A stretch of DNA of 64,000 nucleotides, taken from the NCBI GenBank assembly GCA_041665625.1, contig JBAYIK010000002.1, forward strand, positions 33,126 through 97,125. Direction: 5' to 3'. How positions within the stretch are numbered: position 1 is the stretch's first letter; every line of letters begins with the position of its first letter. The notes beneath the pieces were generated by a model. The model had not been told where the DNA came from. It saw only the letters and a list, made by a program, of their open reading frames with translations, and made no database searches. Of this stretch, positions 1 through 13,743 are shown one piece after another. This DNA comes from Minisyncoccota bacterium (lineage in GTDB: Bacteria > Patescibacteriota > Minisyncoccia > Phycocordibacterales > XYD1-FULL-46-19). The translations under genes were made by a program, and so were the position numbers.

Positions 1-1254
1 TTTGTAGGTGTAATTATATTTCTTAATCAGAGATTCGATAATTTCTTTGTCAGCAAAGGAACCCCAAGGCAAATAAATAATTCCATCTGTTTCTAGAAAA
101 GATTTTGCTTGTTTGAGAAATTGTTCCAAAGTGGACTCTACTTGGACACCTTGTTCACTCCATACCTCATCTAGAATGGGTAGATTTGCAGTTATAACGT
201 CAAATTTACCCTCAATTCCATCAAATATATTCGTCTTGACAATTTTGACCACATTTTCTACTTCATTACTCAATACATTCAAGCTAGCGTTCTCTATAGC
301 TTTTTCCGAGATGTCAGTAGCAATAACTTTCTTAGCCCCAAGTAAGGCTGCGATGACAGAAATAACCCCACTACCAGTTCCAATATCGGCAACCCGAAGT
401 CCACTTAAATCTTTAAGATTATCAATAATCATTGATGACGAATAAGTTATGTTTGGGTCACAAGTGAAAACTCCGTTATTTACGATAATCTTCGCTTTTC
501 CAAACGTTAATTCTTGTTCGTCGTGGGAAAATAACTTATTCCAGCTACCATCAACTTTATCAGTTTTGATTATTAAAAATGGTGGAGATTCTTTTTCGTC
601 TTTCCAGCCACGCCCATCATTTGGGGCTAATGGTTCTAAAATTTCTGGGTTACCAAAACCTGCTTCCTTGAGCATATCTAGGTAATTTTGTTTAGGCCAA
701 TAGTAATCAGGGATGTTGATGGGCGGGTTGCCTTTTAATAAAGTAATAACTCGGCAACCTGGCTTTAATTCTGGGACATAAACCATCTGATGAGTCATAA
801 AATCTTTACCGTTACTTCTGTCCCAATTTGGATTAAGTATTACTAGTTTTCCGCCCGTTTTTAGAAGAGAATGAATACGCTTAAGTACCTTGATAATCTC
901 TTCCTGAGATGAGATTTCACATAGTACAAAATTTAGCACTGCGTCATCGAAATAATCAGCATATTGTGTCTCTATCTCGGGATGTTCGCTTTCTAGCAAA
1001 TAAACAACGCTATTTTGTGTATCTTGCTCAGCAATCTCAAGTTGATGAGCTGACACGTCAACACCAACAACAGAGGCTCCTTGTTGAGCAAGGTAGATAC
1101 TAAACTTTCCATTGCCACAGCCGTAGTCTAGGATTTTTTTACCCTTTATTGGCTCCAATAGTCCTGCCACGGTTTTGTGGCCCAGCTCCCAATCAGTCGT
1201 CGCCTTCTTGCCGTAGGCCTTGTATTCTTTAGATATTTTATCGTAATCTCCCAT
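1..1254 (-). CDS. Two-domain class I SAM-dependent methyltransferase; ATG at 1254, C-terminus runs off the window start
   Basis: Uninterrupted minus-strand reading frame from the ATG at 1252-1254 to position 1. The ORF track omits it because it is edge-truncated. The N-terminal domain has motif I ILDYGCGNG. The second domain has VADIGTGSGVISV and FDVITANLP. The plus-strand ORFs 113-445, 449-685 and 909-1103 are its shadows. Confidence 0.6.
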   Translation of the reverse strand, partial: MGDYDKISKEYKAYGKKATTDWELGHKTVAGLLEPIKGKKILDYGCGNGKFSIYLAQQGASVVGVDVSAHQLEIAEQDTQNSVVYLLESEHPEIETQYADYFDDAVLNFVLCEISSQEEIIKVLKRIHSLLKTGGKLVILNPNWDRSNGKDFMTHQMVYVPELKPGCRVITLLKGNPPINIPDYYWPKQNYLDMLKEAGFGNPEILEPLAPNDGRGWKDEKESPPFLIIKTDKVDGSWNKLFSHDEQELTFGKAKIIVNNGVFTCDPNITYSSSMIIDNLKDLSGLRVADIGTGSGVISVIAALLGAKKVIATDISEKAIENASLNVLSNEVENVVKIVKTNIFDGIEGKFDVITANLPILDEVWSEQGVQVESTLEQFLKQAKSFLETDGIIYLPWGSFADKEIIESLIKKYNYTYK

Positions 1255-1260
1255 ATCTTT

Positions 1261-1692
1261 TTAATCCAACCACTCTAAAGGATATTCTTGAATCTGTAAA
1301 CCTAAATTCGAAAATAGTTGGCGTTCCCAAGTGGCTCCTTTTGAGCTTTGCCAATCTGGCAAGAACAAGGCAATTTTTATATAGCCAGACTCAAATACTT
1401 TTTTGTAAAATATGTTTAAAATTGGCAGACAGTATCCGTCGGTCTTTGGGTACTTTTTTGCTAGTCTTTGCAGTGTATCTTCAAATGGTGTTTGACTAAA
1501 AACTTGTAAGCCATTCTTGCCCGCGGTCTCAATTGCCTTTTCGAGATGAGCTAAGTTTTTCTCTATGCTACCAAGGCCACCGGTAGAAATTGGGCCACAA
1601 ACAAAGGCTATTGGTTTACCAGACTTGCTTATCTCTTCAAGCATCCCAATAGCTATTTCAGCTAAGTCTTCAAATGTTTCGACTTTATCCAT
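1261..1692 (-). CDS. Hypothetical Rossmann-fold protein; nucleoside 2-deoxyribosyltransferase-like / DUF4406-like is a guess
   Basis: 143-aa ORF. Its stop lies 7 nt upstream of the methyltransferase ATG, so the two likely form an operon. The motif IAFVCGPISTGGLG resembles the YIAGPMTG motif of the deoxyribosyltransferase-like fold. Confidence 0.45.
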   Translation of the reverse strand: MDKVETFEDLAEIAIGMLEEISKSGKPIAFVCGPISTGGLGSIEKNLAHLEKAIETAGKNGLQVFSQTPFEDTLQRLAKKYPKTDGYCLPILNIFYKKVFESGYIKIALFLPDWQSSKGATWERQLFSNLGLQIQEYPLEWLD

Positions 1693-1889
1693 TTCGTAAA
1701 TATGACAAAGTATACCAAAAGTTCTGAACCCTATCCAGGTTGCCCTAAATGGGCCTTATAAAATAAGGCTTAAAAAATGCTCGAATGGAGGGACGCATTT
1801 CGAACGTTTGACTGGGCAAGCTTGTACCCTAACCCTCAATTTCATCTAAATACTATGACTAATTTAATAGCCCTGAGTTTTTAAGTTTT

Positions 1890-2438
1890 ATGGCCAAAAG
1901 CAAAATACGAAAAGTAGAAAAGGACCTTGTCGCTTCCAAGGGCAAGAAAACAAGAGGAAAGAAGGTCTCAAATGTCCCCAAAATGACGGGGGACGATGAC
2001 GGTCTCTTTAAGTTTGTTGACTCCTCTGGGGTTCAAAATCCCCTTATACTATTGGACTTCATTAAGTGGAGTGCAGTACCTAAGGAGACCAGAGAATTAA
2101 AAACCCTTGGCGACTTTGAGACATTTTGTGGCCTCTCAAGAAAAACTCTCTTAAGGTGGACCTCACTTCCTGGATTCTGGGATGAGGTGGCCCTTTACAG
2201 AAACCAAGTAATGCGTAGTTTTTCGACTGAAATGGGTTTTATCTTAGTTAAGAGTGCTCGTCAGAAACTTGACCACAAGCCAGTTGAAATTTTCTTTCGA
2301 CTTTTTGAGGGCCTAAAGAGCGAGACTGAAATCCCCCAAAGGAGTCAGTTGACTGAAGAACAAAAAGAAAAATTAAGAGGGGCACTTAAGCTCACGGGCT
2401 TAGCCTCGATTGTCAAAGATAATCTTGATGACGAGTAG
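1890..2438 (+). CDS. Hypothetical basic protein with an HTH-like segment; possibly phage terminase small-subunit-like
   Basis: 182-aa ORF with a lysine-rich N-terminus, the HTH-like stretch TLGDFETFCGLSRKTLLRW and an acidic C-terminus. The function is an inference. Confidence 0.45.
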   Translation: MAKSKIRKVEKDLVASKGKKTRGKKVSNVPKMTGDDDGLFKFVDSSGVQNPLILLDFIKWSAVPKETRELKTLGDFETFCGLSRKTLLRWTSLPGFWDEVALYRNQVMRSFSTEMGFILVKSARQKLDHKPVEIFFRLFEGLKSETEIPQRSQLTEEQKEKLRGALKLTGLASIVKDNLDDE

Positions 2439-2514
2439 CCTAGAATTTTTTTGCACAACCTCTAAATTATTTCTTAATGGTCGGTCAGGCTGTAGTTTGA
2501 AGTTTTCTCATAAA

Positions 2515-2552
2515 AAGAAAAGGCGGGGTTGGGACCCGCCAATAGTCTTTTT
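2515..2552 (+). terminator. Rho-independent terminator after the 1890-2438 gene
   Basis: A-rich tract, then the hairpin GGCGGG-gttggga-CCCGCC at 2522-2540, then tagtcTTTTT. Confidence 0.5.
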
Positions 2553-2859
2553 GCTTTGGCAATGCCTAAGCTCGCAGACCAAGCGATGGCTTGTTTTTGT
2601 CTGGACGTAGCCACACGTCTCAATTGGGTTGCGGGGATATCGGACACCAGCCAATAAGTCCTTAATCACTACCGCCCTGCCACACTGGCCGAGGAGAAAC
2701 GTCGCGATTGGGCAGAGGCTCCTGGGGCCTCTTCTTAACCCTGACGGGGAGACCTTATCCTAGGCTGGATAGAACAAAAACTCCCTTCTATCTTTATTTA
2801 AGCACCTACTAGCCACTATTACAAGTTTTTTAGTGCCTCCTAATTTTGAGCCAAGGCTG

Positions 2860-2887
2860 TTGAAATAGACCCCCTCTCTGCTATAAT
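2860..2887 (+). promoter_or_regulatory. Sigma70-like promoter: TTGAAA, 16-nt spacer, TATAAT
   Basis: -35 TTGAAA at 2860-2865 and -10 TATAAT at 2882-2887. A highly structured RNA region starts about 7 nt downstream. Confidence 0.5.
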
Positions 2888-2893
2888 GGATTT

Positions 2894-3043
2894 GCGTCCC
2901 ACGTTACCAATTGAATAGTTATTAGCGGTAAAGCACTGCTTTTTTGAGTCCGATTGCGGACTGGAAGGGGCAGTTGACCTCCACAATCGGGGGCTTTACC
3001 GCCTCTGGTAATGTGGGACGCAGGTCGGCTGTCCCTTTTTGTG
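2894..3043 (+). ncRNA. Candidate structured cis-regulatory RNA or small RNA. It has nested long-range helices and an alternative terminator hairpin. The class is unknown.
   Basis: A 15-bp outer helix pairs 2894-2908 (gcgtcccacgttacc) with 3007-3021 (ggtaatgtgggacgc, one G-U). A perfect 10-bp inner helix pairs 2925-2934 (gcggtaaagc) with 2993-3002. Inner hairpins are actgc/gcagt and gtccg-attg-cggac. GGGAC at 3015-3019 can instead pair with GTCCC at 3031-3035, followed by TTTTTGTG, giving a mutually exclusive terminator. No tmRNA, RNase P or SRP motifs were found. Confidence 0.35.
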
Positions 3044-3088
3044 TTATCTAAAAATTAAAATTATTAGCGTCATAATTTTTAATTAAGT

Positions 3089-3532
3089 ATGGAAAAAGAG
3101 TATAAGGGTTATAACGGTTCTGTTATTTTAGGAGACAAGAGTCTTGCCATCAAACGAGGGCTCAGAGGAATTTTATTAGGAGGTGGTGCTATTAGGGGTG
3201 ATAAAACTATCCCTTATTCGAGCATTGTCGCTGTACAACTAAAGAAGGCTGGCTTTGTGGCTGGCTATATTCAGTTTACTCTCTCTGGTGGGTCAGAGGC
3301 TAAAGGTGGATTGTTTCAATCAGCTTACGATGAAAACTCAATCAACTTCCACCGCAAGGGCAATGATAAATTTGCGGAATTAAAAAAGTTAATTGAAGAA
3401 AGAATTGGTAGTGATTCAGTGAGTAGTCACAGCTCTCTGGACGAAATCGCTAAACTGGCAGAGCTAAGAGAAAAAGGGGTTATCACAGAGGAGGAATTTC
3501 AACAAAAGAAAAAACAATTATTAGCTTCTTAA
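3089..3532 (+). CDS. SHOCT-domain protein with a DUF4429-like N-terminal part
   Basis: The C-terminal stretch SSLDEIAKLAELREKGVITEEEFQQKKKQLL is a SHOCT motif. Confidence 0.65.
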   Translation: MEKEYKGYNGSVILGDKSLAIKRGLRGILLGGGAIRGDKTIPYSSIVAVQLKKAGFVAGYIQFTLSGGSEAKGGLFQSAYDENSINFHRKGNDKFAELKKLIEERIGSDSVSSHSSLDEIAKLAELREKGVITEEEFQQKKKQLLAS

Positions 3533-3547
3533 CCATAAAAAATAACT

Positions 3548-4015
3548 ATGGAAGAATTAAAAGGGTGGTTCAAGTTTGAGAATAACCTAAAGAGTATGCG
3601 ATGGTATCACTGGGTTTTACTAGTCGTCTTCTTGGCAGTTTTTGGAAACATAATGTCTGCTGTCTTAATTGATAGTCCAGCTCCAGCACAAAGCCCTAGC
3701 TCAAATCAGCCAAAAACGGAAGAAACGGCAAGCTCTGGCTCATCCATAAATTTTGATAAAGTCGAAAGTGCGGTCAACGCTCTTAAAATTACGGGTCTCG
3801 TTAAAAAAGTAGACTCTAGCTTAAATCAGGCCTACGTTGATGGTCTCAATTGGGGGACGCTTAATGTCGAGGAGAAAAAGACAACAGCACAGGCACTGGC
3901 TTACTACGTCGGCCACGAAGAAGGGACCAACCTCTACTGGGTGGATATCTATGACTGGCAATCTGGCAAAAAATTAGCTAAATTTAGTGATAGTTGGGGC
4001 TTCACGACCTACTAA
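3548..4015 (+). CDS. Hypothetical membrane-anchored extracytoplasmic protein
   Basis: N-terminal TM helix WYHWVLLVVFLAVFGNIMSAVLI, followed by a Ser/Pro-rich linker. Confidence 0.55.
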   Translation: MEELKGWFKFENNLKSMRWYHWVLLVVFLAVFGNIMSAVLIDSPAPAQSPSSNQPKTEETASSGSSINFDKVESAVNALKITGLVKKVDSSLNQAYVDGLNWGTLNVEEKKTTAQALAYYVGHEEGTNLYWVDIYDWQSGKKLAKFSDSWGFTTY

Positions 4016-4020
4016 CTAAA

Positions 4021-4572
4021 ATGTTGCCTAAAAATAAAAGATTCTTCTCCCTATTTTTGGCTTTTGGCCTGTTGTCTTGCGGACAGAGCGTTTTAGCTAT
4101 CCAGACCTCTATCATAGCCCCCGTAGAGGTCCATTTTGCCCCGTACGAGCTAATAACTCCTTTCATAGTCAAAGAGATTAAACAGGCCACTTCGACCATA
4201 CACGGCTCACTTTATGGCATTACAAACAAGGCCGTTGCAGACGCCCTAATTGAGCGAGACAGGTCAGGGGTTGAGGTCAAGATTGGCGAGGATAAACTCC
4301 AGTCGGCTGGCAAGTATGACCTACACAGATATTTATCAAGTAATGGAGTAGAAGTCGTTATCAAGAAGACCTCGGCACTGGAGCACAACAAATGGCTGAT
4401 TATCGACAATCAGGTGGTGCTTGAGGGTTCTTTCAATTACTCCAACAACGCTCAAAGTCAGGACAATAGCTTTATCATCTTTCGAAGTCCACAAATTGCC
4501 AGTCTGTTCGAGCAGAATTTTCTCAAAATTATGGCGAGAGATAAATATCCAGTAGACCCAACCATAAAATAA
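4021..4572 (+). CDS. Phospholipase D (HKD) superfamily endonuclease, Nuc-like, probably a secreted lipoprotein
   Basis: HKD motif HNKWLIIDNQVVLEGSFNYSNNAQ. The signal peptide with a lipobox-like LLSCGQ follows the ATG at 4021. The ORF track's alternative start is 3994. Confidence 0.7.
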   Translation: MLPKNKRFFSLFLAFGLLSCGQSVLAIQTSIIAPVEVHFAPYELITPFIVKEIKQATSTIHGSLYGITNKAVADALIERDRSGVEVKIGEDKLQSAGKYDLHRYLSSNGVEVVIKKTSALEHNKWLIIDNQVVLEGSFNYSNNAQSQDNSFIIFRSPQIASLFEQNFLKIMARDKYPVDPTIK

Positions 4573-4587
4573 AGCAACTAAGATAGG

Positions 4588-5145
4588 CTAAGTTTGGGAA
4601 TCATTGATAAATTGTCTAGCATTTTCGGAAACCCTTCCTGCGATAGAAGCTAAATTTGTTATTGCCGTTATAAAATTAAATTTATGAATAGGTTGAGCGA
4701 TATCTAGACAGCGAAGACTGCTTTTAAGATTCTCCCATTCGTGGAAATAATGTCCATAGAACCACCTATCAATTATTTTCTGAGTGGTCTCAACTTCGTC
4801 ATTAATCACGATTCTAATCATTGGATTGCACATCAGATTATTATAAGACTGCTTACACTTAATTATACTATTTCTCATCGCTGTGTTTTGGTTGCTATTT
4901 AACAACAAATCACAAATTTCTAGTATCGTAAGTCCCTCCTTTTTTAAGGTGATTTTTCTTAAATCAAGCAACATAGACCTTAGCTCATCTTCGTCGAATC
5001 CTGTAATGTCCTGGGATAGGGATTTATCAGTTTTATAATCCAACCTAAAAGCTATATTATCGACTCTCTTAAAAAACCGAGAAGACTGAACTCTCGTCAC
5101 GACATCTATATATGCTTCTATTTTTTCTCTATCTTGCTGGGTCAT
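4588..5145 (-). CDS. Hypothetical protein, 185 aa, translationally coupled to the upstream 821-aa gene
   Basis: The ORF overlaps the stop of 5129-7594 by 17 nt. No recognisable motif. Confidence 0.55.
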   Translation of the reverse strand: MTQQDREKIEAYIDVVTRVQSSRFFKRVDNIAFRLDYKTDKSLSQDITGFDEDELRSMLLDLRKITLKKEGLTILEICDLLLNSNQNTAMRNSIIKCKQSYNNLMCNPMIRIVINDEVETTQKIIDRWFYGHYFHEWENLKSSLRCLDIAQPIHKFNFITAITNLASIAGRVSENARQFINDSQT

Positions 5146-7594
5146 CTGGTGTTTCTTCTTCTGTCTCTTCTGACTTAGCCTTTTCCTGTAAACTTTTTAT
5201 GTCTTCCTCAATATCATCGTTTGCGGGACTATCTGCTGGCCACTTGCCCCATACCTTATAAGTGAACCAATCAATATCTGCTACATCTATCAAGGAGTAC
5301 ATCATAGACTGAGCATCATCCCTTATGCTCATATTACCGTTTAGTTTTTCGTAATCAAAGTTATATCTCCACTTACCCAACTCAACATAAAGTTGTTCTT
5401 TGTTCGGGCTAATCCTGTCTGGGTCAACACCAACAGGTAAATTGCTAAAGTATTTGTCATTATACTTTTTCTCAAAATCTAGAATCTTTAATTTTAATTC
5501 AGCATAGACATCCTCCCACTTATACTTAAGAGCTAAAATTCCTAAGTAGCAAGCCCTTTCAAAGATTCGAGGTTCATCATAACCGTAGCCTTCCGTTGTT
5601 TTATCTATCGCTTGGCCAGCCATAGAGGACAAAGAATTTATTGAATCGCTAGCGAGTTTTTTATTTTGAAGATTTGTCATTACTAGCAACCCCGTTTTTG
5701 CGACACTCTCAACTAAGGACCTAAAATTATTTGAACCGCCATCAAATTTTTCAGCGTGATGGGTAAACCAATAAGGAAGATGAAGATTCCAGCCAAGGTG
5801 TTTATATAGCTCCATTTTCTCGCCAGAGAACTCTGTGTTCTGAGCAATTTCTATAATCAAACTATTAACAGTAAAGAGTAGACGTCCAACGCTCTCTGCA
5901 AGATGGCTGTCGCAATTCTTAATCTTTTCTGATAGAGCCCTCAGACTTCCGTAGAGCTCCTCAAAAAATTCAACTATGTCGTTGCGGTAGCTGTCCTTTT
6001 CTCTTTTTTCTGTGAGAGCAAAATAATAATTTACTATTTGAGCAATCACAATGTAGAGCTGGTCATAGGCTTTTGTCATCGTGAGAGACGAGCTAATGTC
6101 ACTAGGTATATATCCGCTTTGTCTAGACACAAAGACATATTGGGCAATGGTCGCTATATGCTCCAGGGCGGGGTTAACCTGATATCTTGTAACCATTTTT
6201 TTGCTAAAAAACGAAGCCCCAATTATTTTAAGCAAATTGATATTACACTGGTCGATTATAATTAATTGTTTCTCCGCCAATCCATAAAAAGCAATCTCTT
6301 GTAGCTTATCCTGAATACCCCGAAGCATAGGGGTAAGTCCCTTATCTGAAGCGATTTCTCCAATGTTACCTAATTTATCGATACTCTGAAAAACGACCTC
6401 AAGATTTTTGCCCCTCTTCCCGATATCGATGAATTGAGAAAGGTTCCCTTCCAGACTCTCCAGTATTGGATTTTCGTTCGTCTGTCCTACATAAGTTATG
6501 TCCTTTGCTTTTAACGCTAAAAATTCATAAATACTGAGAAAAAGGGTTGCATTACCATCCTTTCCCTCCCTTATAAACTTTTCTCCAGCTTTATTTAAGC
6601 GTTCAAAATTGTTAAAGAGAAACCTCTGGCTATCGCTTTCAACGGCGAGAAAGGCAACAGCTGAAGGCATTGCAATAGAAGATGTCCTACGAACCTCAAG
6701 GAATCTCCCCAATATATTTCTTACAGCAATGAAACCCCTTTTTGTTGTTCCAACTTCCTGTTTGTCTGATAATTTTAAAGATATTTCGACGAGATTCTCA
6801 ATTTGTCTATCAAGATTATTAAAATAGGGCTGTAGAAAGGTATTGTAGGTTTTTGCGAGGGCTTCATTTTCTGACAATTTTTTATCTCTAGATACCATAA
6901 CCTTAGCAATTTTTCTTGCGTCGGATTCTACCAGGTTCAGAAACTGAATAGCTTGTTTTTCTAGAAAATAAATTGCGTTTGCGGGGTTTATCTTTTGTCG
7001 AACTGTTTTGTACTGCCAATCAATAAGGGCAAAGATAGCCCCTGCCAAAATAAGAGAAATTAGGGTTATGTACGAACTTACTGGTTCTAAAATTGTCTCA
7101 AGTCCTCCAACGTATAGACCTGCCCCAAAAAATAAGAGGGTTATAATAATAACAAGCAGGTAAACAATTTTTTCTTTCCAATCGTGTATGTACACGTCAA
7201 AATACTGAGAAGAGTACAGGTCAGAGGCACTTTGTATCATAAAAATAGAGATGGTAAACACTATTGCAATTGCACCCCCAGACATTGCCCCCACAGCGAT
7301 AAGATAATTGCTCAGGATATCTTGAGTTATCGAATGCCCTCCAAAACTAACTAAGAAAATGCCTATAATCAGACCAAGAAAGGCGAAACCAAACCTTAGG
7401 AGAACGTCGAATTTCCTTCCGAAGAAATTCTGTAATCTCCTCCACCTGTTCAGGTAAAGCCAGAAAGTAAGACTATAGCTGTACTGAAGGTAGGATAGCC
7501 AGCTTTGTTCCCAGCCACTCATTTCTTTTAGTAAATCTCTCACTTTTTCATTATTGACCAAAAGACTTGTTCTGTAAAGAATTGTCAAGTACAA
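5129..7594 (-). CDS. Hypothetical large membrane protein: N-terminal 4-TM block plus a roughly 600-aa cytoplasmic domain of unknown function
   Basis: 821-aa ORF. TM helices are FAFLGLIIGIFLVSFGG, LIAVGAMSGGAIAIVFTISIFMI, YLLVIIITLLFFGAGLYVGG and ITLISLILAGAIFALI. The true start may be downstream, for example at MSGWEQ. No catalytic motif recognised. Confidence 0.6.
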   Translation of the reverse strand: MYLTILYRTSLLVNNEKVRDLLKEMSGWEQSWLSYLQYSYSLTFWLYLNRWRRLQNFFGRKFDVLLRFGFAFLGLIIGIFLVSFGGHSITQDILSNYLIAVGAMSGGAIAIVFTISIFMIQSASDLYSSQYFDVYIHDWKEKIVYLLVIIITLLFFGAGLYVGGLETILEPVSSYITLISLILAGAIFALIDWQYKTVRQKINPANAIYFLEKQAIQFLNLVESDARKIAKVMVSRDKKLSENEALAKTYNTFLQPYFNNLDRQIENLVEISLKLSDKQEVGTTKRGFIAVRNILGRFLEVRRTSSIAMPSAVAFLAVESDSQRFLFNNFERLNKAGEKFIREGKDGNATLFLSIYEFLALKAKDITYVGQTNENPILESLEGNLSQFIDIGKRGKNLEVVFQSIDKLGNIGEIASDKGLTPMLRGIQDKLQEIAFYGLAEKQLIIIDQCNINLLKIIGASFFSKKMVTRYQVNPALEHIATIAQYVFVSRQSGYIPSDISSSLTMTKAYDQLYIVIAQIVNYYFALTEKREKDSYRNDIVEFFEELYGSLRALSEKIKNCDSHLAESVGRLLFTVNSLIIEIAQNTEFSGEKMELYKHLGWNLHLPYWFTHHAEKFDGGSNNFRSLVESVAKTGLLVMTNLQNKKLASDSINSLSSMAGQAIDKTTEGYGYDEPRIFERACYLGILALKYKWEDVYAELKLKILDFEKKYNDKYFSNLPVGVDPDRISPNKEQLYVELGKWRYNFDYEKLNGNMSIRDDAQSMMYSLIDVADIDWFTYKVWGKWPADSPANDDIEEDIKSLQEKAKSEETEEETPDDPAR

Positions 7595-7725
7595 TAAAAA
7601 TACTACTGAAAATCAGATAGTCTATATCGTGAAGATGGGTTTTTAGTCTTCTGAATAAGCTCAAGGTAGACAGGAATCTTCGCAAAGGCTAAAGGCTTTA
7701 TTTATAAGATGAAAATGAAAATAAT

Positions 7726-8133
7726 ATGGGTTACCAACCTTACGGTTCGAACTTAGACGACATAGCGTACAGGGTAAATTTCGACCCGAATATACTCTGT
7801 ATTTTAGTAAACGGACACGAACTTAGCCGACTTCACTCTAAGACAGACATAGCTGATTTTTTTGAGTATGTTAACTCTCACCCAAATATAGCTATCAAAC
7901 TGAGCGACCTAAAAAAGCTTAGGCTCAAGAAAGGTCTTGACGATATTTTGAGAGATATTGGTTTTAGAGGAATCTTGGCAAAAATGTTTTTTCCTAAGAT
8001 GACCAACAGTGAAATTATTTTTAGAAATCCTATTTACCAAAAGGACCTAGAGGAACTAGGTATCGACTATGTAGATGCGTGGATACTGCTCCATACCCCT
8101 AAAAGAAAGGGGGCTTTCGACGTAACTTCTTAA
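7726..8133 (+). CDS. Hypothetical protein, 135 aa
   Basis: ORF in the accessory block, divergent from the 821-aa gene. Confidence 0.45.
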   Translation: MGYQPYGSNLDDIAYRVNFDPNILCILVNGHELSRLHSKTDIADFFEYVNSHPNIAIKLSDLKKLRLKKGLDDILRDIGFRGILAKMFFPKMTNSEIIFRNPIYQKDLEELGIDYVDAWILLHTPKRKGAFDVTS

Positions 8134-8191
8134 CACGTTTTAGCCCTCCTCTATAATTATCTGTGTTAGCCTGTCTACATAACCGATAATT

Positions 8192-8437
8192 ATGGAAAAT
8201 GAAAATAAAAAATTCCTGACCAGGGACTTCTACATAACCGCCTTCTTAATAGCGAAGGGGTATAAAGTCTCAGATGTTGATATGACAATCCCAGACAAAA
8301 TGTTCTTCTCCTTTGAGGACTTCAAAGGTAGGGAGCGTTTGGTTAGGGATTTTTTATGTGGGCAAGCTTCAGTTGAGCCCCAGAAATTTATTTCAGGGAT
8401 AAAAATACTGAAGTCTTTGATACACGCAAGAGATTAA
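8192..8437 (+). CDS. Hypothetical small protein, 81 aa
   Basis: ORF. It might be a directionality or regulatory factor because it sits next to the recombinase, but this is speculative. Confidence 0.4.
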   Translation: MENENKKFLTRDFYITAFLIAKGYKVSDVDMTIPDKMFFSFEDFKGRERLVRDFLCGQASVEPQKFISGIKILKSLIHARD

Positions 8438-8454
8438 ACAAGTTAGTAATAAAA

Positions 8455-8928
8455 ATGAAAATGAACAAACCACAGAGAACCAACCCTAAGAGCAATGTTG
8501 TAAAACTGGCCTTATGCACGGTGGGGCTCATATGCGAAAGGAGGAAAAACAAGTTGCCGACTCTTGCCTCCCTTCTGATATGCGTCGCACCGAAAAACTT
8601 TCTTTCTGTGGTCCATATCGTCAAACTTTTTATTTCCTCTAAAATCAGAAGGAAAAGTCGGGCTAATGGTAAAAATAAAATTATAATAGGTAGGTTAATT
8701 GTTCATAAACTAGACGGCAATTTTGATACTGAGGATATTGAGCTGTCTTGTTCAGGACCGAAGCAGTCAATAAGCCCAGAGACAATTAGAGAATTCAAGC
8801 AGATTGTGGAGGAAGAATACGGGCTAGTGATAGACAAGACTGACGCCTCTAGAATACTTTGTGGGTTGACCAACTTTTTCGACTTGCTAGCAAAAATAGA
8901 TTATCGAGAAAAAATAAAAGATGGTTGA
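8455..8928 (+). CDS. Hypothetical protein; the real start is probably internal
   Basis: ORF immediately upstream of the recombinase. Confidence 0.35.
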   Translation: MKMNKPQRTNPKSNVVKLALCTVGLICERRKNKLPTLASLLICVAPKNFLSVVHIVKLFISSKIRRKSRANGKNKIIIGRLIVHKLDGNFDTEDIELSCSGPKQSISPETIREFKQIVEEEYGLVIDKTDASRILCGLTNFFDLLAKIDYREKIKDG

Positions 8929-8973
8929 AAATTATAAGTTGAGTTTAATTCGCTAATTGTTAGAATTAAAATA

Positions 8974-10560
8974 ATGAAAGATAATAATATGGAAAAAATT
9001 ACAAAAATGGTTAAGGCAGTAATCTTCCCCAGAGTCTCTTCGAAGGAACAGGAGGAAACAGGTTACTCCCTAGACGCTCAGCAGGAGCTGTTGAAGAATT
9101 ATAGTGACAAGCACTCGTTTGAAGTGGCCAAGGCCTTTAGAGTTTCGGAATCGGCTAGTGGTAAAAAACAAAGGTCGACCTTCAACGAAATGATGGCCTA
9201 TATGGATAAGAACAAAATAAACATACTCGTCTGCGAAAAGGTCGACAGATTAACTCGTAATTTTAAGGACGCAATTTTTATTGATGAATGGCTTGATAAA
9301 AACGAAAATCGACAGATTCATTTAGTCAAAGACGGTATAGTCTTGCACAAGTATTCTAAATCACAAGAAAAGCTTAATTGGGGAATCAGGATACTGTTCG
9401 CCAAAAATTATACTGATAATCTTTCGGAGGAAGTTAAAAAAGGCCAAAAACAGAAGTCAAAGGAAGGGTGGCTACCAACAAAGCCACCGCTGGGTTATAG
9501 AACGATAGGAGAGAAGGGCCACAAGGTGCACGTTGTTGATGAGAAGGTTGCTCCTTATATCAAAAAAATGTTTGACCTTTATGCCACAGGCAACTACTCA
9601 ACAGACTCTTTGGGGGACAAAATGTATAAGCTTGGGCTAAGAAGCCGTGGTGGTTTTCGAGTAGTTAAAAGCAAGATTCACAAACTTCTCTCTGACCCCT
9701 TCTACTATGGAATGTTTGTCTGGAAAGGTGAGGTCTATCAAGGGAAGCACGAACCGTTAATTGATAAAGACCTCTTTGGCCAAGTCAGGGAAAAAATGAC
9801 CAGGGGTAGTGCTCCCTACCACAACAAACATTTTAAGGAATTAAGAGGTAAGATATTTTGTGGAAATTGTGGCAAGACTGTAACCTGGGAAAAACAGAAA
9901 GGCTCTTGGTATGGGGCTTGCAAACAGTGCAAAGCTCAACTAGCCGACAAGAGGCAATATATTAAACAAGAAAATGTTGAGAACTACTTGCTGGACCTTA
10001 TAATCGCTACAGCACCCAAAAACGAAAGGATTCTTGCTGTTCTTAACAAGGCCCTCAAAGAGAGTCATAGCGAAGAAATTATATATCACGAAACACAGGT
10101 CCAGAGTATAAACAATAGCCTTACTCGTATCCAACAGAGGAAAAAGGTTCTCTATGATGACCGCCTAGATGGTAGAATTTCTCCCTCTGAATATGACCAA
10201 AAAATTGAGGAGTTTAGGCAAGAAGAAACTGACTTAATAAATTCGCTAAGCAAATTGAAGTCTGACAACACAGAATACTATAGAGTTGGTATCGCCCTTC
10301 ACGAGCTCGCTCTACGAGCAAGAGAAATATATTTAAGCAAAAAGGCTACAGTGGAAGAGCGTCGCTTGCTCTTGTCTTACTCTTTCTCGAACGTCTCGGT
10401 TCTACGGGGAGATATAAGGGCAGAGTACACAAAAGCGTTCCAGTTTTTGATTGATTGGATGCCGAAGGTAAATGAAACTCTCGAACTCACAAAAGACGTT
10501 GAGAATAAACAACAAAAGAGCACTTTCGTGCCCTCTTGTCCTATCCTGCTCCGCGGGTAG
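8974..10560 (+). CDS. Large serine recombinase (integrase / resolvase family)
   Basis: The N-terminal catalytic domain VIFPRVSSKEQEE...ILVCEKVDRLTRN carries the catalytic Ser. A recombinase domain follows, then the zinc ribbon CGNCGK...CKQCK and a coiled-coil C-terminus. The stop codon 10558-10560 overlaps the 3' end of tRNA exon 2. Confidence 0.85.
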   Translation: MKDNNMEKITKMVKAVIFPRVSSKEQEETGYSLDAQQELLKNYSDKHSFEVAKAFRVSESASGKKQRSTFNEMMAYMDKNKINILVCEKVDRLTRNFKDAIFIDEWLDKNENRQIHLVKDGIVLHKYSKSQEKLNWGIRILFAKNYTDNLSEEVKKGQKQKSKEGWLPTKPPLGYRTIGEKGHKVHVVDEKVAPYIKKMFDLYATGNYSTDSLGDKMYKLGLRSRGGFRVVKSKIHKLLSDPFYYGMFVWKGEVYQGKHEPLIDKDLFGQVREKMTRGSAPYHNKHFKELRGKIFCGNCGKTVTWEKQKGSWYGACKQCKAQLADKRQYIKQENVENYLLDLIIATAPKNERILAVLNKALKESHSEEIIYHETQVQSINNSLTRIQQRKKVLYDDRLDGRISPSEYDQKIEEFRQEETDLINSLSKLKSDNTEYYRVGIALHELALRAREIYLSKKATVEERRLLLSYSFSNVSVLRGDIRAEYTKAFQFLIDWMPKVNETLELTKDVENKQQKSTFVPSCPILLRG

Positions 10561-10586
10561 GACTCGAACCTACGACCAACCCGTTA

Positions 10587-11133
10587 CACTAATCCTGATG
10601 TTTCCAAAAGGCGTGGACTATATCATCACCCGGTCTGGGTGCAAGGCGCTTCCCCCGTACTTACGGAGTACTCTCTTTCGAGATAGTCTCTGAACCTTCC
10701 CTCTGATTTCTCTCGGGGCTTGGCTGCTGATTACCCTCGTCTTGACGTTAGGGCTTCCAGCAATTCACCTTGTTATTCATTCCTAAATTCCTTTAGGAAG
10801 CTGCGTAATACCTTCGTGTACTTCCATGTGACAATTAGCGCAAAGCAAAACGCATTTAGCAATCTCCTTCTCTATCTTCTCCCAAGATCTAGTTAATCCT
10901 CTTACAGATAAACCGAAATCTTTTTTCTTAGGATCAATATGATGAAAACTGAGAGCGCTCTGACTCTTAGAATAACCACATATCGCACACTTGCTACCTT
11001 TTGACGCACGAGCCATTTCTCTTAATTTTTTACGACGAAGAGATACAGCTTGGCGCAAATAGACAGCACGGTCTTTATAAGTTCTTTTGTCTGGCATACT
11101 CATACAAGTATACCATATTTGAACTCATGTGAC
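10587..11133 (-). other. Group I intron in the tRNA anticodon loop, carrying an HNH endonuclease ORF
   Basis: Reading the minus strand after the ORF: P-like gaattgctggaag, Q-like aatcagcagcc, R element GTTCAGAGACTAT (forward 10683-10696) and S element GATATAGTCCACGC (forward 10611-10624). P7 pairs GACTA with TAGTC. The 5' splice follows a U and the 3' splice follows a G. Confidence 0.7.
10783..11103 (-). CDS. HNH homing endonuclease encoded inside the group I intron
   Basis: 106-aa ORF with CAICGYS...HHIDPKK...CANCHMEVH, which is an HNH motif with a zinc-finger-like Cys/His arrangement. It lies between the intron 5' end and the P3-P9 core. Confidence 0.75.
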   Translation of the reverse strand: MSMPDKRTYKDRAVYLRQAVSLRRKKLREMARASKGSKCAICGYSKSQSALSFHHIDPKKKDFGLSVRGLTRSWEKIEKEIAKCVLLCANCHMEVHEGITQLPKGI

Positions 11134-11262
11134 ACAGCGGGCCGCTCTACCAACTGAGCTACCGCGGAATATAATTTTTAAGGAACTCCTCAATTTTAAA
11201 CAAAAAAGACGAAAAAGGCAAGGATTCAAAACCTCTCGATTTTATGGCTTTTTCCTGTATAA

Positions 11263-13026
11263 TTGGCCCATATGAAATGGAACCTAAAACCCTTATTTAA
11301 GAGCGATACTGACCCCAATATCGCCAAGAAGCAGGCCGAGTCAGTGAAAGCTAGTTATGTCTTTATTAACAAATGGCGAATTCGTAAAGATTATTTGAGT
11401 GACCCTAAAGTGCTCGCGGTCGCCCTCAAGGAGTTCGAAGCCTGGGACGCGCAATCTGGCACCAACGACCAAGTCTGCTATTACTTCTCTCTCCGTGGTG
11501 AATTAGAGAAGGGCAACGCCAAGATCAAGGCCAGTTTCAATCAGGCTAAAGATGTCGCGGTTAAGATTGATAATGATATTCAGTTTTTTACTCTTAACTT
11601 AAGTAAAATTGGAGTAACAACTCAAAAAAAATTCCTCAAGGCGCCAGAGCTTACCCCCTATCACCAATTACTTAAAAAACTTTTTGAGACCGGGCGCTAT
11701 ACCAAGTCTGACGCCGAAGAAAAAATTATTAATCAACTCTCTGACACTAGTTACCACCGCTGGGTTGAACTTATCGAATCACTCCTCGCCGAAGAAGAAC
11801 GTGGGGGCAAAAACTTTCCCACCCTTCTCTCCGAATGTGCTAACCAGGATAAAAAGAAGCGAGATCAAGCCAGCCAAGCAGCCAATGAGATCCTCGCCAC
11901 TTGGGCCCCCGTCGCCGAACAAGAATTAAACGCTGTTCTCGAACACAAAAAGACCATGGATCAAATCCGTGGCGCCGAAGAGCCCGAAACACTTCGTCTC
12001 TTAGGTGACGATATTGATAAAAAGACAGTTGAGGCCATGCTTGAAGCGGTTGAGGATAATTTCAAGCTAGCCAAACGTTACCACCAGCTCAAAGCTAAAT
12101 TACTTAAGCAAAAGAAAATTAGCTATTTCGAGCGTGGAGTACCAGTGGGGAAAATTAACAAAAAGTGGGCCTTCCTTGACGCCCAAAATTTAGTTCAAAA
12201 TCAATTAGCAAAGCTTGATCCCGAACTCGGCCAAATTTTTACTAGCTTTATTAAAAACGGCCAGATCGACGTCTTGCCTAAAAAGGGCAAAAGAGGAGGA
12301 GCCTTCTGTATTAGTCATTCTCCCACTCTCCCAACCTATATTCTTCTTAATTACACTGGAGAATGGCGCGACGTTAAAACTCTCGCTCACGAAGTGGGAC
12401 ATGGTATTAACAATGAGCTCATTCGCAAAAACAGCCGCCCCATTTATTTTGGCACTCCCATCTCCACGGCTGAAGTGGCGAGCACCTTCTTCGAAGACAT
12501 TGTGTTAGAATCTTCAAGAGAAAATGTGTCTGAACAAGAAAAATTAACCTTAATGATGGCCAAGCTTGATGACGAGATTGGTACCATCTTCCGCCAAGTG
12601 GCGGCTTACCGCTTCGAACAAACTCTACACAAGACTTATCGTGAACAAGGCTATCTGTCTAAAGAAGTTATCGGCAAAATGTGGCTGGCCGAGATGAAAA
12701 AATATTTAGGCGAAGCCGTGACTTATCCCAAAGGTAGCGAGAATTGGTGGGTACACTGGAGCCACTTCCGCAACTTCTTCTACGTCTATTCTTATGCCTC
12801 GGGCCTCCTGATCGCCAAAGCCCTGCAAGCTAAAGTAAGAGAAAATCCGAAATTTATAAAAGAAGTAAAAATCTTTCTCAGCACCGGCACCGCCAAGAGC
12901 CCCAAAGATATTTTTTCTGAGCTTGGCCTTAACATCGAAGATCCTAAATTCTGGCAAGCCGGCCTTAATCAATTTGCCAAGCTTCTGAGTGAAGCTGAGA
13001 AATTAGCTAAGAAAATCAAACTCTAA
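11263..13026 (+). CDS. pepF: Oligoendopeptidase F (M3B family)
   Basis: 587 aa with the HExxH zinc motif TLAHEVGHGINNE and typical M3 architecture. Confidence 0.8.
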   Translation: MAHMKWNLKPLFKSDTDPNIAKKQAESVKASYVFINKWRIRKDYLSDPKVLAVALKEFEAWDAQSGTNDQVCYYFSLRGELEKGNAKIKASFNQAKDVAVKIDNDIQFFTLNLSKIGVTTQKKFLKAPELTPYHQLLKKLFETGRYTKSDAEEKIINQLSDTSYHRWVELIESLLAEEERGGKNFPTLLSECANQDKKKRDQASQAANEILATWAPVAEQELNAVLEHKKTMDQIRGAEEPETLRLLGDDIDKKTVEAMLEAVEDNFKLAKRYHQLKAKLLKQKKISYFERGVPVGKINKKWAFLDAQNLVQNQLAKLDPELGQIFTSFIKNGQIDVLPKKGKRGGAFCISHSPTLPTYILLNYTGEWRDVKTLAHEVGHGINNELIRKNSRPIYFGTPISTAEVASTFFEDIVLESSRENVSEQEKLTLMMAKLDDEIGTIFRQVAAYRFEQTLHKTYREQGYLSKEVIGKMWLAEMKKYLGEAVTYPKGSENWWVHWSHFRNFFYVYSYASGLLIAKALQAKVRENPKFIKEVKIFLSTGTAKSPKDIFSELGLNIEDPKFWQAGLNQFAKLLSEAEKLAKKIKL

Positions 13027-13044
13027 TTTGTATTAAAAAAACAA

Positions 13045-13079: not shown

Positions 13080-13113
13080 GACGAACTGGACTAGACCGAT
13101 GCCGGAGCACTGG

Positions 13114-13738: not shown

Positions 13739-13743
13739 CCCGA

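What the first reader, a model, noticed from the sequence alone, without database searches (positions are those of the whole stretch)
2860..3043. Promoter-to-terminator structured RNA with mutually exclusive helices, a riboswitch-like leader or small RNA of unknown class
A good sigma70 promoter (TTGAAA, 16-nt spacer, TATAAT) is followed by an RNA that folds into nested long-range helices: a 15-bp outer helix, a 10-bp perfect inner helix and internal hairpins. The 3' strand of the outer helix (GGGAC) can instead pair with a downstream GTCCC followed by a U-tract. That yields the antiterminator/terminator logic of a riboswitch controlling the downstream SHOCT-protein gene at 3089. I found no match to tmRNA, RNase P, SRP, T-box or common riboswitch consensus motifs by eye. 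The 320 nt upstream of it (2553-2859) are also GC-rich, non-coding and unexplained.
Basis: seen in the sequence. Interest (0 to 1): 0.55.

Follow-up and report, generated by a model that had tools for sequence, protein, structure and literature searches.

The report
New pseudoknotted small RNA gene family

Summary
The RNA is real. Window 2894-3040 (+) lies between a near-consensus promoter (2860-2887) and a U-tract (3036-3040). It folds far better than shuffled sequence (z -7.3) and matches no Rfam 15 family, even at E<=10.

I found 46 distinct homologues in metagenomes, one in a viral contig and one divergent copy in a genome. All 44 loci with enough upstream DNA have a -10 box at the same distance.

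Covariation supports P1 (18 bp), P2 (10 bp), a small P3 hairpin and P4 (7 bp, CCGAUUG/CAAUCGG). It also supports a 9-bp long-range helix between the conserved apical loop (GGGGCAGUU, 2967-2975) and the 3' tail (GGCUGUCCC, 3027-3035). The U-tract follows this helix directly.

The two MFE inner hairpins are not conserved.

Downstream genes vary and are sometimes convergent, so this is not a SHOCT riboswitch. The family sits in integrative, phage-like elements of Paceibacterota. It usually lies after a small-terminase-like or replication gene and 0.4-2.5 kb upstream of a large serine recombinase.

LOOT RNA (RF03000) sits beside serine recombinase and SHOCT genes in other loci but is structurally unrelated.

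Function is unknown. My best reading is a stand-alone structured RNA of the element; a factor-gated attenuator is the main rival.

The parts
2860..2887 (+). Sigma-70-type promoter of the RNA: -35 TTGAAA at 2860-2865, a 16-nt spacer, and TG-extended -10 TATAAT at 2882-2887.
   Evidence: scores it 11 of 12; all 44 distinct family members with at least 50 nt of upstream DNA have a -10-like hexamer at the same distance from P1, and 30 of 44 score at least 9 of 12 with a -35 box at 16-18 nt.
2894..3040 (+). The inferred transcript, about 147 nt. The start is inferred from the -10 position and the end from the U-tract; neither end has been mapped.
   Evidence: Covariance models match here: R1 171 bits and R2 113 bits.
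2892..2909 (+). P1 5' strand. It pairs with 3006-3023 to form 18 bp, including G-U pairs that exist only on the + strand.
   Evidence: on a MAFFT alignment made without any structure: 93.9% of cells paired and 12 of 18 pairs with changes on both sides; 95.9% paired and 13 of 18.
3006..3023 (+). P1 3' strand. UGUGGG and GCAGG are nearly invariant across the family.
2910..2924 (+). J1/2, an A/U-rich asymmetric internal loop. It is 15 nt here and 4-11 nt in relatives, and lies opposite 2-5 nt (3003-3005 in the window). I infer it is the hinge that lets the RNA fold back on itself.
   Evidence: One search gives the loop lengths. The sequence is not conserved. No complementary site exists elsewhere in the window.
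2925..2934 (+). P2 5' strand, GCGGUAAAGC. It pairs with 2993-3002.
   Evidence: 96.6% paired and 10 of 10 pairs have changes on both sides. That alignment was fitted to a model that contained P2.
2993..3002 (+). P2 3' strand, GCUUUACCGC.
2938..2949 (+). P3, a small variable hairpin (GCUU-UUUU-GAGU). Three members lack it (L039, L063, L111).
   Evidence: 87-90% paired, and 3 of 4 pairs have changes on both sides.
2950..2956 (+). P4 5' strand, CCGAUUG. It pairs with 2984-2990 (CAAUCGG) and closes the apical loop. It replaces the two MFE hairpins.
   Evidence: 99.7% paired and 4 of 7 pairs have changes on both sides. Variants include CAAUUG/CAAUUG, CAGUUG/CAACUG, CAAAUG/CAUUUG, CACUUG/CAAGUG, CCAUCG/CGAUGG and UUUAG/CUAAA. 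P4 was not part of model R1, so this support is independent of that model.
2984..2990 (+). P4 3' strand, CAAUCGG.
2957..2983 (+). Conserved 27-nt apical loop, CGGACUGGAA-GGGGCAGUU-GACCUCCA. The family consensus is CGGGCUGAAA-GGGGCAGCU-nnCCUCCA.
   Evidence: One search shows the invariant columns GCGG, G.AAG.GGC and CCUCCAC. This conservation is partly forced, because the members were recruited with a pattern on these bases. The divergent member L022 has a different loop sequence.
2967..2975 (+). 5' strand of the long-range helix (PK), GGGGCAGUU, which lies inside the apical loop.
   Evidence: a 9-of-9 complementary helix in every member whose tail is held; 96.5% paired and 4 of 9 pairs have changes on both sides; duplex energy -13.4 kcal/mol.
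3027..3035 (+). 3' strand of the long-range helix, GGCUGUCCC, starting 3 nt after P1.
   Evidence: Covarying variants are GGGGCGACU/GGUCGUCCC, GCGGCAGCU/GGCUGUCGC, GCGGCAACC/GGUUGUCGC, GCGGCGAGU/GCUCGUCGC, GAGGCUAAU/GUUAGUCUC, GGGGCUAGU/GCUAGUCCC and GGGGCAGCU/GGCUGCCUC.
3036..3040 (+). U-tract directly after the long-range helix. I infer it is the site of intrinsic termination.
   Evidence: T5-6 at this position in nearly all members, including those where the next gene is convergent.
3089..3532 (+). Downstream gene encoding a DUF4429 + SHOCT protein. This is context only and is not a conserved partner of the RNA.
   Evidence: It lies downstream of the RNA in only 3 of 46 distinct members.
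1890..2438 (+). Upstream gene encoding a small-terminase-like protein (context).
   Evidence: It is 37% identical to L008 3507-4229. That protein hits terminase small subunit (phrog_24579, 3e-7) and is followed by a terminase large subunit and a portal gene.
8974..10560 (+). Large serine recombinase of the element, on the same strand as the RNA (context).
   Evidence: One search finds Resolvase, Recombinase and Zn_ribbon_recom domains. In 14 of 20 distinct members with at least 2.5 kb of downstream DNA, a homologue lies 0.4-2.5 kb downstream on the same strand.
2553..2859 (.). GC-rich stretch in which I found no convincing gene. It remains unexplained and I do not count it as part of the RNA.
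   Evidence: Relatives have coding sequence right up to the RNA's promoter.

Best explanation
Window 2894-3040 is a stand-alone gene for a compact, highly structured non-coding RNA. It belongs to a previously uncatalogued family carried by integrative, phage- or satellite-like elements of Paceibacterota (CPR) bacteria.

Shown by the data:
- A conserved promoter fires a few bases before P1.
- The RNA forms P1 (18 bp), an asymmetric hinge loop, P2 (10 bp), a small P3 hairpin and P4 (7 bp).
- The 9 bases GGGGCAGUU in the conserved apical loop pair with GGCUGUCCC, which starts 3 nt after P1 and is followed directly by U5.

Inferred:
- The linker to the tail is only 3-5 nt in most members, and P1 (15-18 bp) is about as long as P2+P4 (15-17 bp). 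The RNA must therefore fold back on itself so that the apical loop meets the base of P1.
- The long-range helix plus the U-tract serves as the intrinsic terminator and locks both ends of the RNA into helices, which would give a stable RNA.
- The RNA then acts in trans for the element. Most likely it is bound by a protein or another macromolecule through the conserved loop bases CGGGCUGAAA and CCUCCA and the conserved base of P1.
- It is not a metabolite riboswitch for the SHOCT gene.
For: Structure and strand:
- The fold is far more stable than shuffles (z -7.3), and the + strand folds better than the - strand.
- Many conserved pairs are G-U on the + strand. Examples are the PK pair G-U in 39 of 44 sequences and the P1 U-G pairs. 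This points to selection on the RNA, not on duplex DNA.

Family:
- No Rfam family matches the window or 15 other members.
- There are 46 distinct homologues from one metagenome pattern scan and protein-anchored look-ups. One more lies in an IMG/VR phage contig and one divergent copy in a GTDB genome.

Covariation:
- On a structure-blind MAFFT alignment, P1 is 93.9% paired (12 of 18 pairs compensatory), P4 is 99.7% (4 of 7) and PK is 96.5% (4 of 9). No shuffle of 500 reaches the observed values, and slid controls reach only 37-47% paired.
- P2 has 10 of 10 compensatory pairs.
- The PK is 9 of 9 complementary in every member whose tail is held.

Independent transcription unit:
- A -10 box sits at a fixed distance in 44 of 44 loci, and the U-tract is near-universal.
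- The neighbouring genes vary, the next ORF is on the opposite strand in 13 of 46 loci, and a promoter-like TTGACT site follows the terminator in at least 10 loci.

Mobile-element context:
- A replication initiator (HTH_36) or primase and a small-terminase-like gene lie upstream. A large serine recombinase lies downstream in 14 of 20 loci.
- The recombinase and MltG genes next to member L072 are named as Paceibacterota proteins, as are the window's own proteins.
- One member lies in a phage contig with tail-fibre, endolysin and diversity-generating retroelement (DGR) genes.

Geometry:
Against: - No transcript data exist. The 5' and 3' ends, and termination itself, are inferred.
- No partner or target has been identified, so 'acts in trans' rests on gene context only.
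- In 28 of 46 loci a co-oriented ORF was called within about 30-600 nt downstream. In the three SHOCT loci I saw no separate promoter, so read-through and cis control cannot be excluded.
- In the window's own sequence, a non-conserved helix (ACUGCUUUUUU with GGAAGGGGCAGU) competes with the PK and gives the lower computed energy.
- The loop conservation is inflated because members were recruited with a pattern on those bases. L022 shows the loop sequence can differ.
- The coexistence of P1-P4 with the PK is a geometric argument, not a measurement.
Confidence: 0.55

Rival explanations
1. The RNA is a cis-acting, factor-gated attenuator. The terminator's 5' strand is displayed in the conserved apical loop. 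When a protein, RNA polymerase or a ligand binds that loop, or holds the RNA extended, the long-range helix cannot form. Transcription then reads through into the downstream genes: SHOCT here, and MltG, an unknown secreted protein and the recombinase elsewhere. The layout recalls the lambda pR'-tR' leader placed ahead of the lysis genes.
For: - The layout is promoter, structured RNA, terminator, then a co-oriented ORF called within about 30-600 nt downstream in 28 of 46 loci.
- I saw no promoter between the terminator and the SHOCT start in the window, L039 or L045.
- The apical loop is conserved beyond what pairing needs.
- An MltG-type transglycosylase and an integrase lie downstream.
Against: - The downstream genes are heterogeneous.
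- The next ORF called is on the opposite strand in 13 of 46 loci. In seven loci of one context plus the phage contig L154 it is a convergent reverse-transcriptase gene whose stop abuts the terminator.
- A conserved TTGACT -35 box with an NANNNT -10 follows the terminator in the commonest context.
- No conserved competing helix for either PK strand was found. The window-specific one and the GGGG/CCUC pairing are not supported by covariation (reading).
Confidence: 0.27
2. This is the first reader's model: a riboswitch-like leader of the SHOCT gene. The 3' strand of the outer helix (GGGAC, 3015-3019) pairs either with the 5' strand (antiterminator) or with GTCCC (3031-3035) ahead of the U-tract (terminator).
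For: - The 5-bp helix can form in the window's own sequence. The duplex energy is -7.1 kcal/mol, and the isolated 3' part folds at -10.4 kcal/mol.
- GGG/CCC is invariant across the family.
Against: - One search finds 0 compensatory changes. The 4th pair is broken in 20 of 44 sequences and the 5th in 9 of 44, and the covariation score is no better than shuffles (500 of 500).
- When P1 changes to GGGUCGC, GGGCAGC or GGGCUGC, the tail stays GUCCC.
- When the tail changes (GUCGC, GUCUC, GCCUC), the apical loop changes with it, not P1.
- SHOCT follows the RNA in only 3 of 46 members.
- Most orthologous SHOCT genes in 28 genomes have no such leader.
Confidence: 0.04
3. The feature is a DNA-level element, such as an att site, a pac site, an origin or a miniature inverted-repeat transposable element (MITE). 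It would be an inverted repeat that merely looks like an RNA.
For: - It lies in an integrative element directly downstream of small-terminase-like genes, where pac sites often lie.
- The - strand also folds well (z -6.2).
Against: - G-U pairs are conserved on the + strand only, and the covariation keeps RNA pairing rules.
- The long-range apical-loop/tail helix and the fixed promoter and U-tract make no sense for duplex DNA.
- There is a single copy in the 64-kb window, so it is not a dispersed repeat.
- It has no similarity to known plasmid or phage DNA.
Confidence: 0.04
4. The RNA is a divergent member of the LOOT RNA family (RF03000), which sits beside serine recombinase and SHOCT genes in other loci.
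For: - LOOT lies upstream of the orthologous SHOCT gene or its operon and next to a related serine recombinase in 9-10 loci.
- LOOT is of similar size and has its own promoter and terminator.
Against: - The LOOT model does not match the window even at E<=10, nor 15 other members.
- The architectures differ. LOOT is four successive hairpins with CCUAAA/GCAUGG and GNRA loops. This RNA is a closed multi-helix rod with a pseudoknot.
- Both RNAs occur 2.3 kb apart in L022.
Confidence: 0.02

Closest known systems
LOOT RNA (Rfam RF03000, an orphan sRNA motif from metagenomes)
   Same: - It occurs beside DUF4429/SHOCT genes, whose close homologues are named mostly from CPR MAGs, and next to large serine recombinase genes.
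- It is about 120-140 nt long.
- It has its own promoter and a terminator.
- Its function is unknown.
   Different: - There is no sequence or covariance-model similarity.
- LOOT is a string of four hairpins with GNRA loops and a short local terminator. This RNA is closed by an 18-bp P1 and ends in a loop-to-tail pseudoknot.
- The two can co-occur in one locus (L022).
Transcriptional riboswitches and attenuators (aptamer plus intrinsic terminator)
   Same: - The order is promoter, conserved structured RNA with a pseudoknot, U-tract, and often a co-oriented gene.
- One strand of the terminator helix lies inside the conserved fold.
   Different: - There is no conserved regulon and no conserved antiterminator helix.
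- The next ORF is on the opposite strand in 13 of 46 loci.
- A separate promoter-like site often follows the terminator.
- No ligand is known.
Canonical intrinsic (Rho-independent) terminators
   Same: A G+C-rich helix is followed immediately by 5-6 U.
   Different: - The two strands are about 51 nt apart.
- The 5' strand lies in the apical loop of a 35-bp multi-helix domain, so the helix is a long-range pseudoknot and not a compact hairpin.
- The simple terminator scan did not call it.
Recombinase- and transposase-associated structured RNAs (IS110 bridge RNA; IscB/TnpB omega-RNAs such as HEARO and RAGATH-18). This comparison rests on my own knowledge.
   Same: It is a structured RNA of about 150 nt encoded in a mobile element, on the same strand as a recombinase gene and shortly upstream of it.
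   Different: - The recombinase here is a large serine recombinase, not a DEDD or RuvC-type enzyme.
- No variable guide segment is evident.
- The only variable loop (J1/2) is 4-15 nt, A/U-rich, and has no complementary site in the window.
Short promoter-proximal phage transcripts (lambda pR'-tR' '6S' leader, HK022 put RNA, P4 CI RNA). This comparison rests on my own knowledge.
   Same: It is a small RNA with a strong promoter and terminator, lying between the regulatory or replication genes and the lysis or integration genes of a temperate element.
   Different: - Those RNAs lack this architecture.
- No Q-like or N-like partner has been identified.
- None of these resemblances was tested experimentally.

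Membership tests
LOOT RNA (RF03000) | The sequence matches the Rfam covariance model at or above its gathering score of 46.4 bits. | tested here: not met
   There is no LOOT match in window 2400-3120 at E<=10, in the whole window at gathering score, or in 15 other members at E<=5. True LOOT hits in other loci score 63-91 bits.
LOOT RNA (RF03000) | Four successive hairpins: a first hairpin with the CCUAAA/GCAUGG internal loop, a long hairpin, and two GNRA-capped hairpins. | tested here: not met
   The consensus shown can be compared with the covariation-supported structure here. None of these elements is present.
LOOT RNA (RF03000) | Genomic setting next to a serine recombinase and DUF4429/SHOCT genes in metagenome-derived (MAG) contigs, several of them CPR. 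| tested here: met
   This is a shared setting only and does not establish membership.
Transcriptional riboswitch | A conserved, covarying aptamer-like fold. | tested here: met
Transcriptional riboswitch | Consistent location in the 5' leader of a functionally coherent set of genes. | tested here: not met
   The next genes belong to many unrelated clusters, the next ORF is on the opposite strand in 13 of 46 loci, and SHOCT follows in only 3 of 46.
Transcriptional riboswitch | Mutually exclusive terminator and antiterminator helices that are conserved across members. | tested here: not met
The real terminator helix (the PK) has no conserved competitor (reading).
Transcriptional riboswitch | Specific ligand binding that changes termination. 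| not testable with these tools
   This needs in-line probing or transcription assays.
Intrinsic terminator | A G+C-rich helix immediately followed by a U-tract. | tested here: met
   A 9-bp helix (duplex -13.4 kcal/mol in the window) is followed by T5-6, but the helix is long-range.
Intrinsic terminator | RNA polymerase actually releases the transcript at the U-tract. | not testable with these tools
   This needs 3'-end mapping or in vitro transcription.
Guide or bridge RNAs of recombinases (IS110 type) | Variable loops complementary to element ends or target DNA, with a cognate DEDD recombinase encoded adjacent. | tested here: not met
   The J1/2 loop has no second match in the window at up to 3 mismatches. 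No informative repeats were found in window 1-14000. The adjacent recombinase is of the serine type. This was tested only in the window.
Housekeeping RNAs (SRP, 6S, RNase P, tmRNA, T-box) | A match to the Rfam models. | tested here: not met
   A superficial similarity of GGAAGGGGCAG to the SRP domain IV motif is ruled out, because these bases covary as a helix with the 3' tail.

The most novel reading that the evidence does not exclude
The apical-loop-to-3'-tail helix may be a new kind of gated intrinsic terminator. Alternatively, the RNA may be a dedicated RNA cofactor of CPR phage satellites or prophages. That choice would switch expression of the lysis and integration module. In the second reading, the folded RNA works with the small-terminase or serine-recombinase machinery in packaging hijack or in control of integration and excision. 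Either would be an RNA function not described for serine-recombinase elements.
Probability: 0.15. Interest if true: 0.8.

Novelty: new variant of a known kind. Interest (0 to 1): 0.62.

Why it matters
- CPR/Patescibacteria are a large, mostly uncultured part of bacterial diversity. Their mobile elements and non-coding RNAs are poorly known.
- This finding defines a new RNA family with strong covariation, more than 45 distinct members and a clear gene structure. Its unusual architecture ties the apical loop of a 35-bp multi-helix domain to the 3' end, making the helix that precedes the terminator U-tract.
- The family recurs after small-terminase-like or replication genes and ahead of large serine recombinases. 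LOOT RNA lies beside related recombinase and SHOCT genes in other loci. This suggests that structured RNAs are regular, functionally important parts of CPR integrative elements.
- Earlier orphan RNA motifs linked to recombinases and transposases (HEARO, RAGATH-18, IS110 5' UTRs) later proved to be functional RNA partners of those enzymes. An RNA linked to serine-recombinase elements is therefore worth testing.
- For annotation, the work supplies a model that can label this RNA in CPR genomes.

Tried and rejected
- Rfam scans of the window, of 2400-3120 at E<=10, and of 15 other members found nothing consistent.
- BLAST of 2440-3090 against phage and plasmid collections gave no match.
- Repeat or MITE: there is a single copy in the window.
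- Conserved leader of SHOCT genes: 28 genome loci with the orthologous gene lack the RNA by blastn, nhmmer and covariance model. Most have an ORF directly upstream, and several have LOOT instead.
- The look-ups that returned the window's own proteins gave only identical copies. The upstream 182-aa protein has no relatives in the large protein database.
- A local GGGG/CCUC hairpin inside the apical loop, and a pairing of the pyrimidine-rich P3 side with GAAAGGGGC, are both broken without compensation in L045, L061, L079 and L039 (reading).
- SRP-like reading of GGAAGGGGCAG: rejected because the bases covary with the tail.
- Guide or bridge RNA idea: there is no complementarity of the variable loop in the window.
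- Pseudogene remnant in 2440-2900: tblastn with all neighbourhood proteins found nothing significant.
- Homology between the window's terminase-like protein and the cluster-2 terminase-like protein: hhalign probability 0.2%. The cluster-2 profile has no relative among solved structures.
- The apparent 300-600-nt 'gaps' between the RNA and the recombinase in some loci appear, on reading the sequences (not scored), to encode small proteins missed by my ORF filter.
- The literature searches found no description of this family. The LOOT description is not in the held text of the 2017 paper, whose supplements are not held.
Full report
**What is in the window.** A promoter, TTGAAA-16-TATAAT, lies at 2860-2887 and matches 11 of 12 consensus positions. 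It is followed by an RNA that folds at -75.1 kcal/mol, z -7.26, with 0 of 200 shuffles folding as well. The opposite strand folds less well, at -61.1 kcal/mol. Rfam 15 has no match at gathering score anywhere near the feature, and none at E<=10 in 2400-3120 on either strand. The region is single-copy in the window. It has no similarity to known phage or plasmid DNA.

The window is chromosomal DNA of a Candidatus Paceibacterota (CPR) genome. The proteins flanking the RNA carry that name in NCBI, and rpoB, rpoC, rpoD and dnaG lie further along.

**Finding relatives.** Four other assemblies that carry the window's flanking proteins are identical over the region and therefore uninformative. The downstream DUF4429/SHOCT protein is highly conserved in CPR, at 63-76% identity. 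Even so, 28 genome loci with this gene lack the RNA. Nine or ten of those loci instead carry the Rfam family LOOT (RF03000) upstream of the SHOCT gene or its operon.

Two contigs with the closest SHOCT homologues (L039, L045) do carry a recognisable homologue of the window RNA, with compensatory changes. I took a 20-base pattern from the three sequences and scanned the metagenome collection. It returned 106 stretches, of which 80 were fetched. A covariance model built from the window sequence alone then found full-length matches in 52 loci besides the window. With L039 this makes 46 distinct sequences.

A second model (R2) added a divergent copy in a Magasanikiibacteriota genome (L022). A second pattern found one member in an IMG/VR phage contig (L154). 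None of 15 further members hits any Rfam family.

**The structure that evolution keeps.** On a MAFFT alignment made without any structural information (A7, 44 sequences), the results were:

| Helix | Window positions | Cells paired | Pairs changed on both sides |
|---|---|---|---|
| P1 | 2892-2909 / 3006-3023 | 93.9% | 12 of 18 |
| P4 | 2950-2956 / 2984-2990 | 99.7% | 4 of 7 |
| Long-range helix (PK) | 2967-2975 / 3027-3035 | 96.5% | 4 of 9 |

No shuffle of 500 reaches the observed values. Sliding the partners by 1-3 columns drops pairing to 37-47%.

On the model-based alignment, P2 (2925-2934 / 2993-3002) has 10 of 10 pairs with compensatory changes. The small P3 hairpin (2938-2949) is supported more weakly.

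A direct check shows the long-range helix is 9 of 9 complementary in every member whose tail is held. Its many covarying versions include GGGGCGACU/GGUCGUCCC, GCGGCAACC/GGUUGUCGC, GCGGCGAGU/GCUCGUCGC, GAGGCUAAU/GUUAGUCUC and GGGGCUAGU/GCUAGUCCC.

Numerous conserved G-U pairs exist only on the + strand, so selection acts on the RNA. The two inner hairpins of the window's minimum-free-energy fold are not conserved. In the window they compete with P4 and with the long-range helix.

The proposed terminator helix, GGGAC (3015-3019) with GTCCC (3031-3035), can form in this one sequence. Across 44 sequences it has no compensatory change. It is broken in 20 sequences at the 4th pair and in 9 at the 5th. 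It scores no better than shuffles, with 500 of 500 reaching the observed value. When P1 varies the tail stays the same, and when the tail varies the apical loop varies with it. The U-tract is real and nearly universal. Its helix partner, however, is the apical loop and not the outer helix.

**Gene structure.** All 44 distinct members with enough upstream DNA have a -10-like hexamer at the same distance from P1. Thirty of them have a promoter scoring at least 9 of 12. The helix plus T5-6 follows P1 after 3-5 nt in most members. The unit is therefore a promoter-to-terminator RNA of about 147 nt, at 2894-3040 in the window. The ends are inferred, not mapped.

The linker to the tail is short, and P1 (15-18 bp) matches P2+P4 (15-17 bp) in length. 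For the long-range helix to coexist with the rod, the RNA must bend back at the asymmetric J1/2 loop. This is an inference from geometry.

**Context.** Neighbourhood clustering across the members, with Pfam and PHROGs searches, shows several recurring arrangements:
- The commonest is DUF5659, a small ORF, a replication initiator (HTH_36, DnaD-like), a small-terminase-like protein (phrog_6299), then the RNA, then MltG/YceG, a predicted secreted protein of unknown family, and a large serine recombinase.
- In a second arrangement a Toprim primase and two small proteins precede the RNA.
- In a third the RNA is followed by one small ORF and the recombinase.
- In seven loci of a fourth context, and in the phage contig L154, the RNA is convergent with a DGR-type reverse transcriptase. 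L154 also has Avd, endolysin and tail-fibre genes.
- Only the window, L039 and L045 have the SHOCT gene downstream.

Among 20 distinct members with at least 2.5 kb of downstream DNA, 14 have a serine recombinase 0.4-2.5 kb downstream on the same strand. The window has one 6 kb downstream (8974-10560), and L039 has a tyrosine integrase.

The window's upstream gene (1890-2438) is 37% identical to a phage protein that hits terminase small subunit and sits directly before terminase large subunit and portal genes. The recombinase and MltG genes next to member L072 are named as Paceibacterota proteins.

In at least 10 of 28 co-oriented cases a TTGACT-type promoter-like site follows the RNA's terminator. 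In 13 of 46 loci the next ORF called is on the other strand, several of them short.

**Interpretation.** The comparative data establish a new, conserved, structured RNA family with its own promoter and terminator, carried by integrative phage- or satellite-like elements of CPR bacteria. They exclude the specific riboswitch logic proposed and the assignment to the SHOCT gene.

I judge a stand-alone RNA acting in trans for the element to be most likely (0.55). The reasons are the variable and sometimes opposite-strand neighbours, the promoter-like site after the terminator, and both RNA ends being locked in helices.

The main rival (0.27) is a cis-acting attenuator. Here a factor that binds the conserved apical loop would withhold the terminator's 5' strand and allow read-through into the SHOCT gene or the lysis and integration genes. 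The three SHOCT loci, where I saw no separate promoter, fit this reading best.

DNA-level readings, a LOOT relationship and the original switch are each unlikely. The function and the partner are unknown, and nothing here was tested experimentally.

**Comparison with known families.** LOOT RNA is the closest in setting. It lies next to a related serine recombinase and upstream of SHOCT, and it has its own promoter and terminator. It fails every structural membership test, and it co-occurs with the new RNA in L022. The resemblance to riboswitches is limited to the layout. Resemblances to recombinase-associated guide RNAs and to short phage leader transcripts are analogies drawn from my own knowledge. 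The one test I could run, complementarity of the variable loop within the window, was negative. Literature searches found no description of this family.

**Remaining puzzles.** The GC-rich stretch 2553-2859 is specific to the window's lineage. It has no significant fold, no Rfam match and no protein remnant. Two independent assemblies break inside it. It stays unexplained.

Noticed in passing
window 10548-11250 (- strand), next to 8974-10560: A tRNA gene appears to be interrupted by a group I intron (Rfam hit 10594-10819). The intron seems to carry an HNH-type ORF, with the motif LCANCHMEVHEG read on the - strand. The tRNA 3' half (T-arm GTAGGTTCGAGTCCTAC plus acceptor) ends near 10549 and overlaps the stop of the serine recombinase gene. 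This is probably the att junction of the integrated element. ARAGORN did not call the tRNA.
   Followed up: partly
window 2553-2859 and 2522-2540: This stretch is GC-rich (0.51-0.53 against about 0.39) with no convincing gene, no significant fold, no Rfam match and no protein remnant. A bidirectional terminator-like hairpin lies at its left edge (2522-2540). JGI contigs from one sample stop at 2690 and restart at 2696, and a Logan contig starts at 2761.
   Followed up: partly
L011, L012, L018, L022, L023, L025, L028, L029, L033, L046 (LOOT coordinates): LOOT RNA (RF03000) is consistently adjacent to a large serine recombinase (42-49% identical to the one linked to the new RNA). It lies upstream of the DUF4429/SHOCT gene and has its own promoter and a short terminator. 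I could not check whether this association was already described, because the original supplement is not held.
   Followed up: partly
L022 623-743 (- strand): This is a divergent member of the new family (R2, 33.5 bits). Its apical loop differs (UCCCCAAAAAGGGGCGG) and its tail is CCGUCCC followed by U5. It lies 2.3 kb from a LOOT RNA in the same Magasanikiibacteriota contig. The family is therefore broader than the pattern-recruited set.
   Followed up: partly
L054, L069, L070, L105, L111, L116, L122 and L154 12439-14006: In one lineage the RNA is convergent with a DGR-type reverse transcriptase (IGNLTSQ motif; phrog_1423, 4e-117) whose stop codon abuts the RNA's terminator. An Avd gene lies beside it. 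L154 is an IMG/VR phage contig with tail-fibre and endolysin genes.
   Followed up: partly
L017 3885-3975: Upstream of the closest genomic SHOCT orthologue lies a long hairpin followed by a GCAA-capped hairpin. It looks like the 3' two-thirds of LOOT but falls below the Rfam threshold.
   Followed up: no
window 3994-4572, 4588-7594: The element also carries a PLD-like nuclease-domain protein (PLDc_2, 6e-17). It also carries two - strand ORFs (185 and 821 aa) with no Pfam or PHROGs match, which may be cargo or defence genes.
   Followed up: no
L002/L006 6485-6730 compared with window about 8150-8450: A near-identical contig from another sample has an extra DUF5659 gene between the 135-aa and 157-aa ORFs upstream of the recombinase. 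The same domain recurs upstream of the RNA in many family loci.
   Followed up: no
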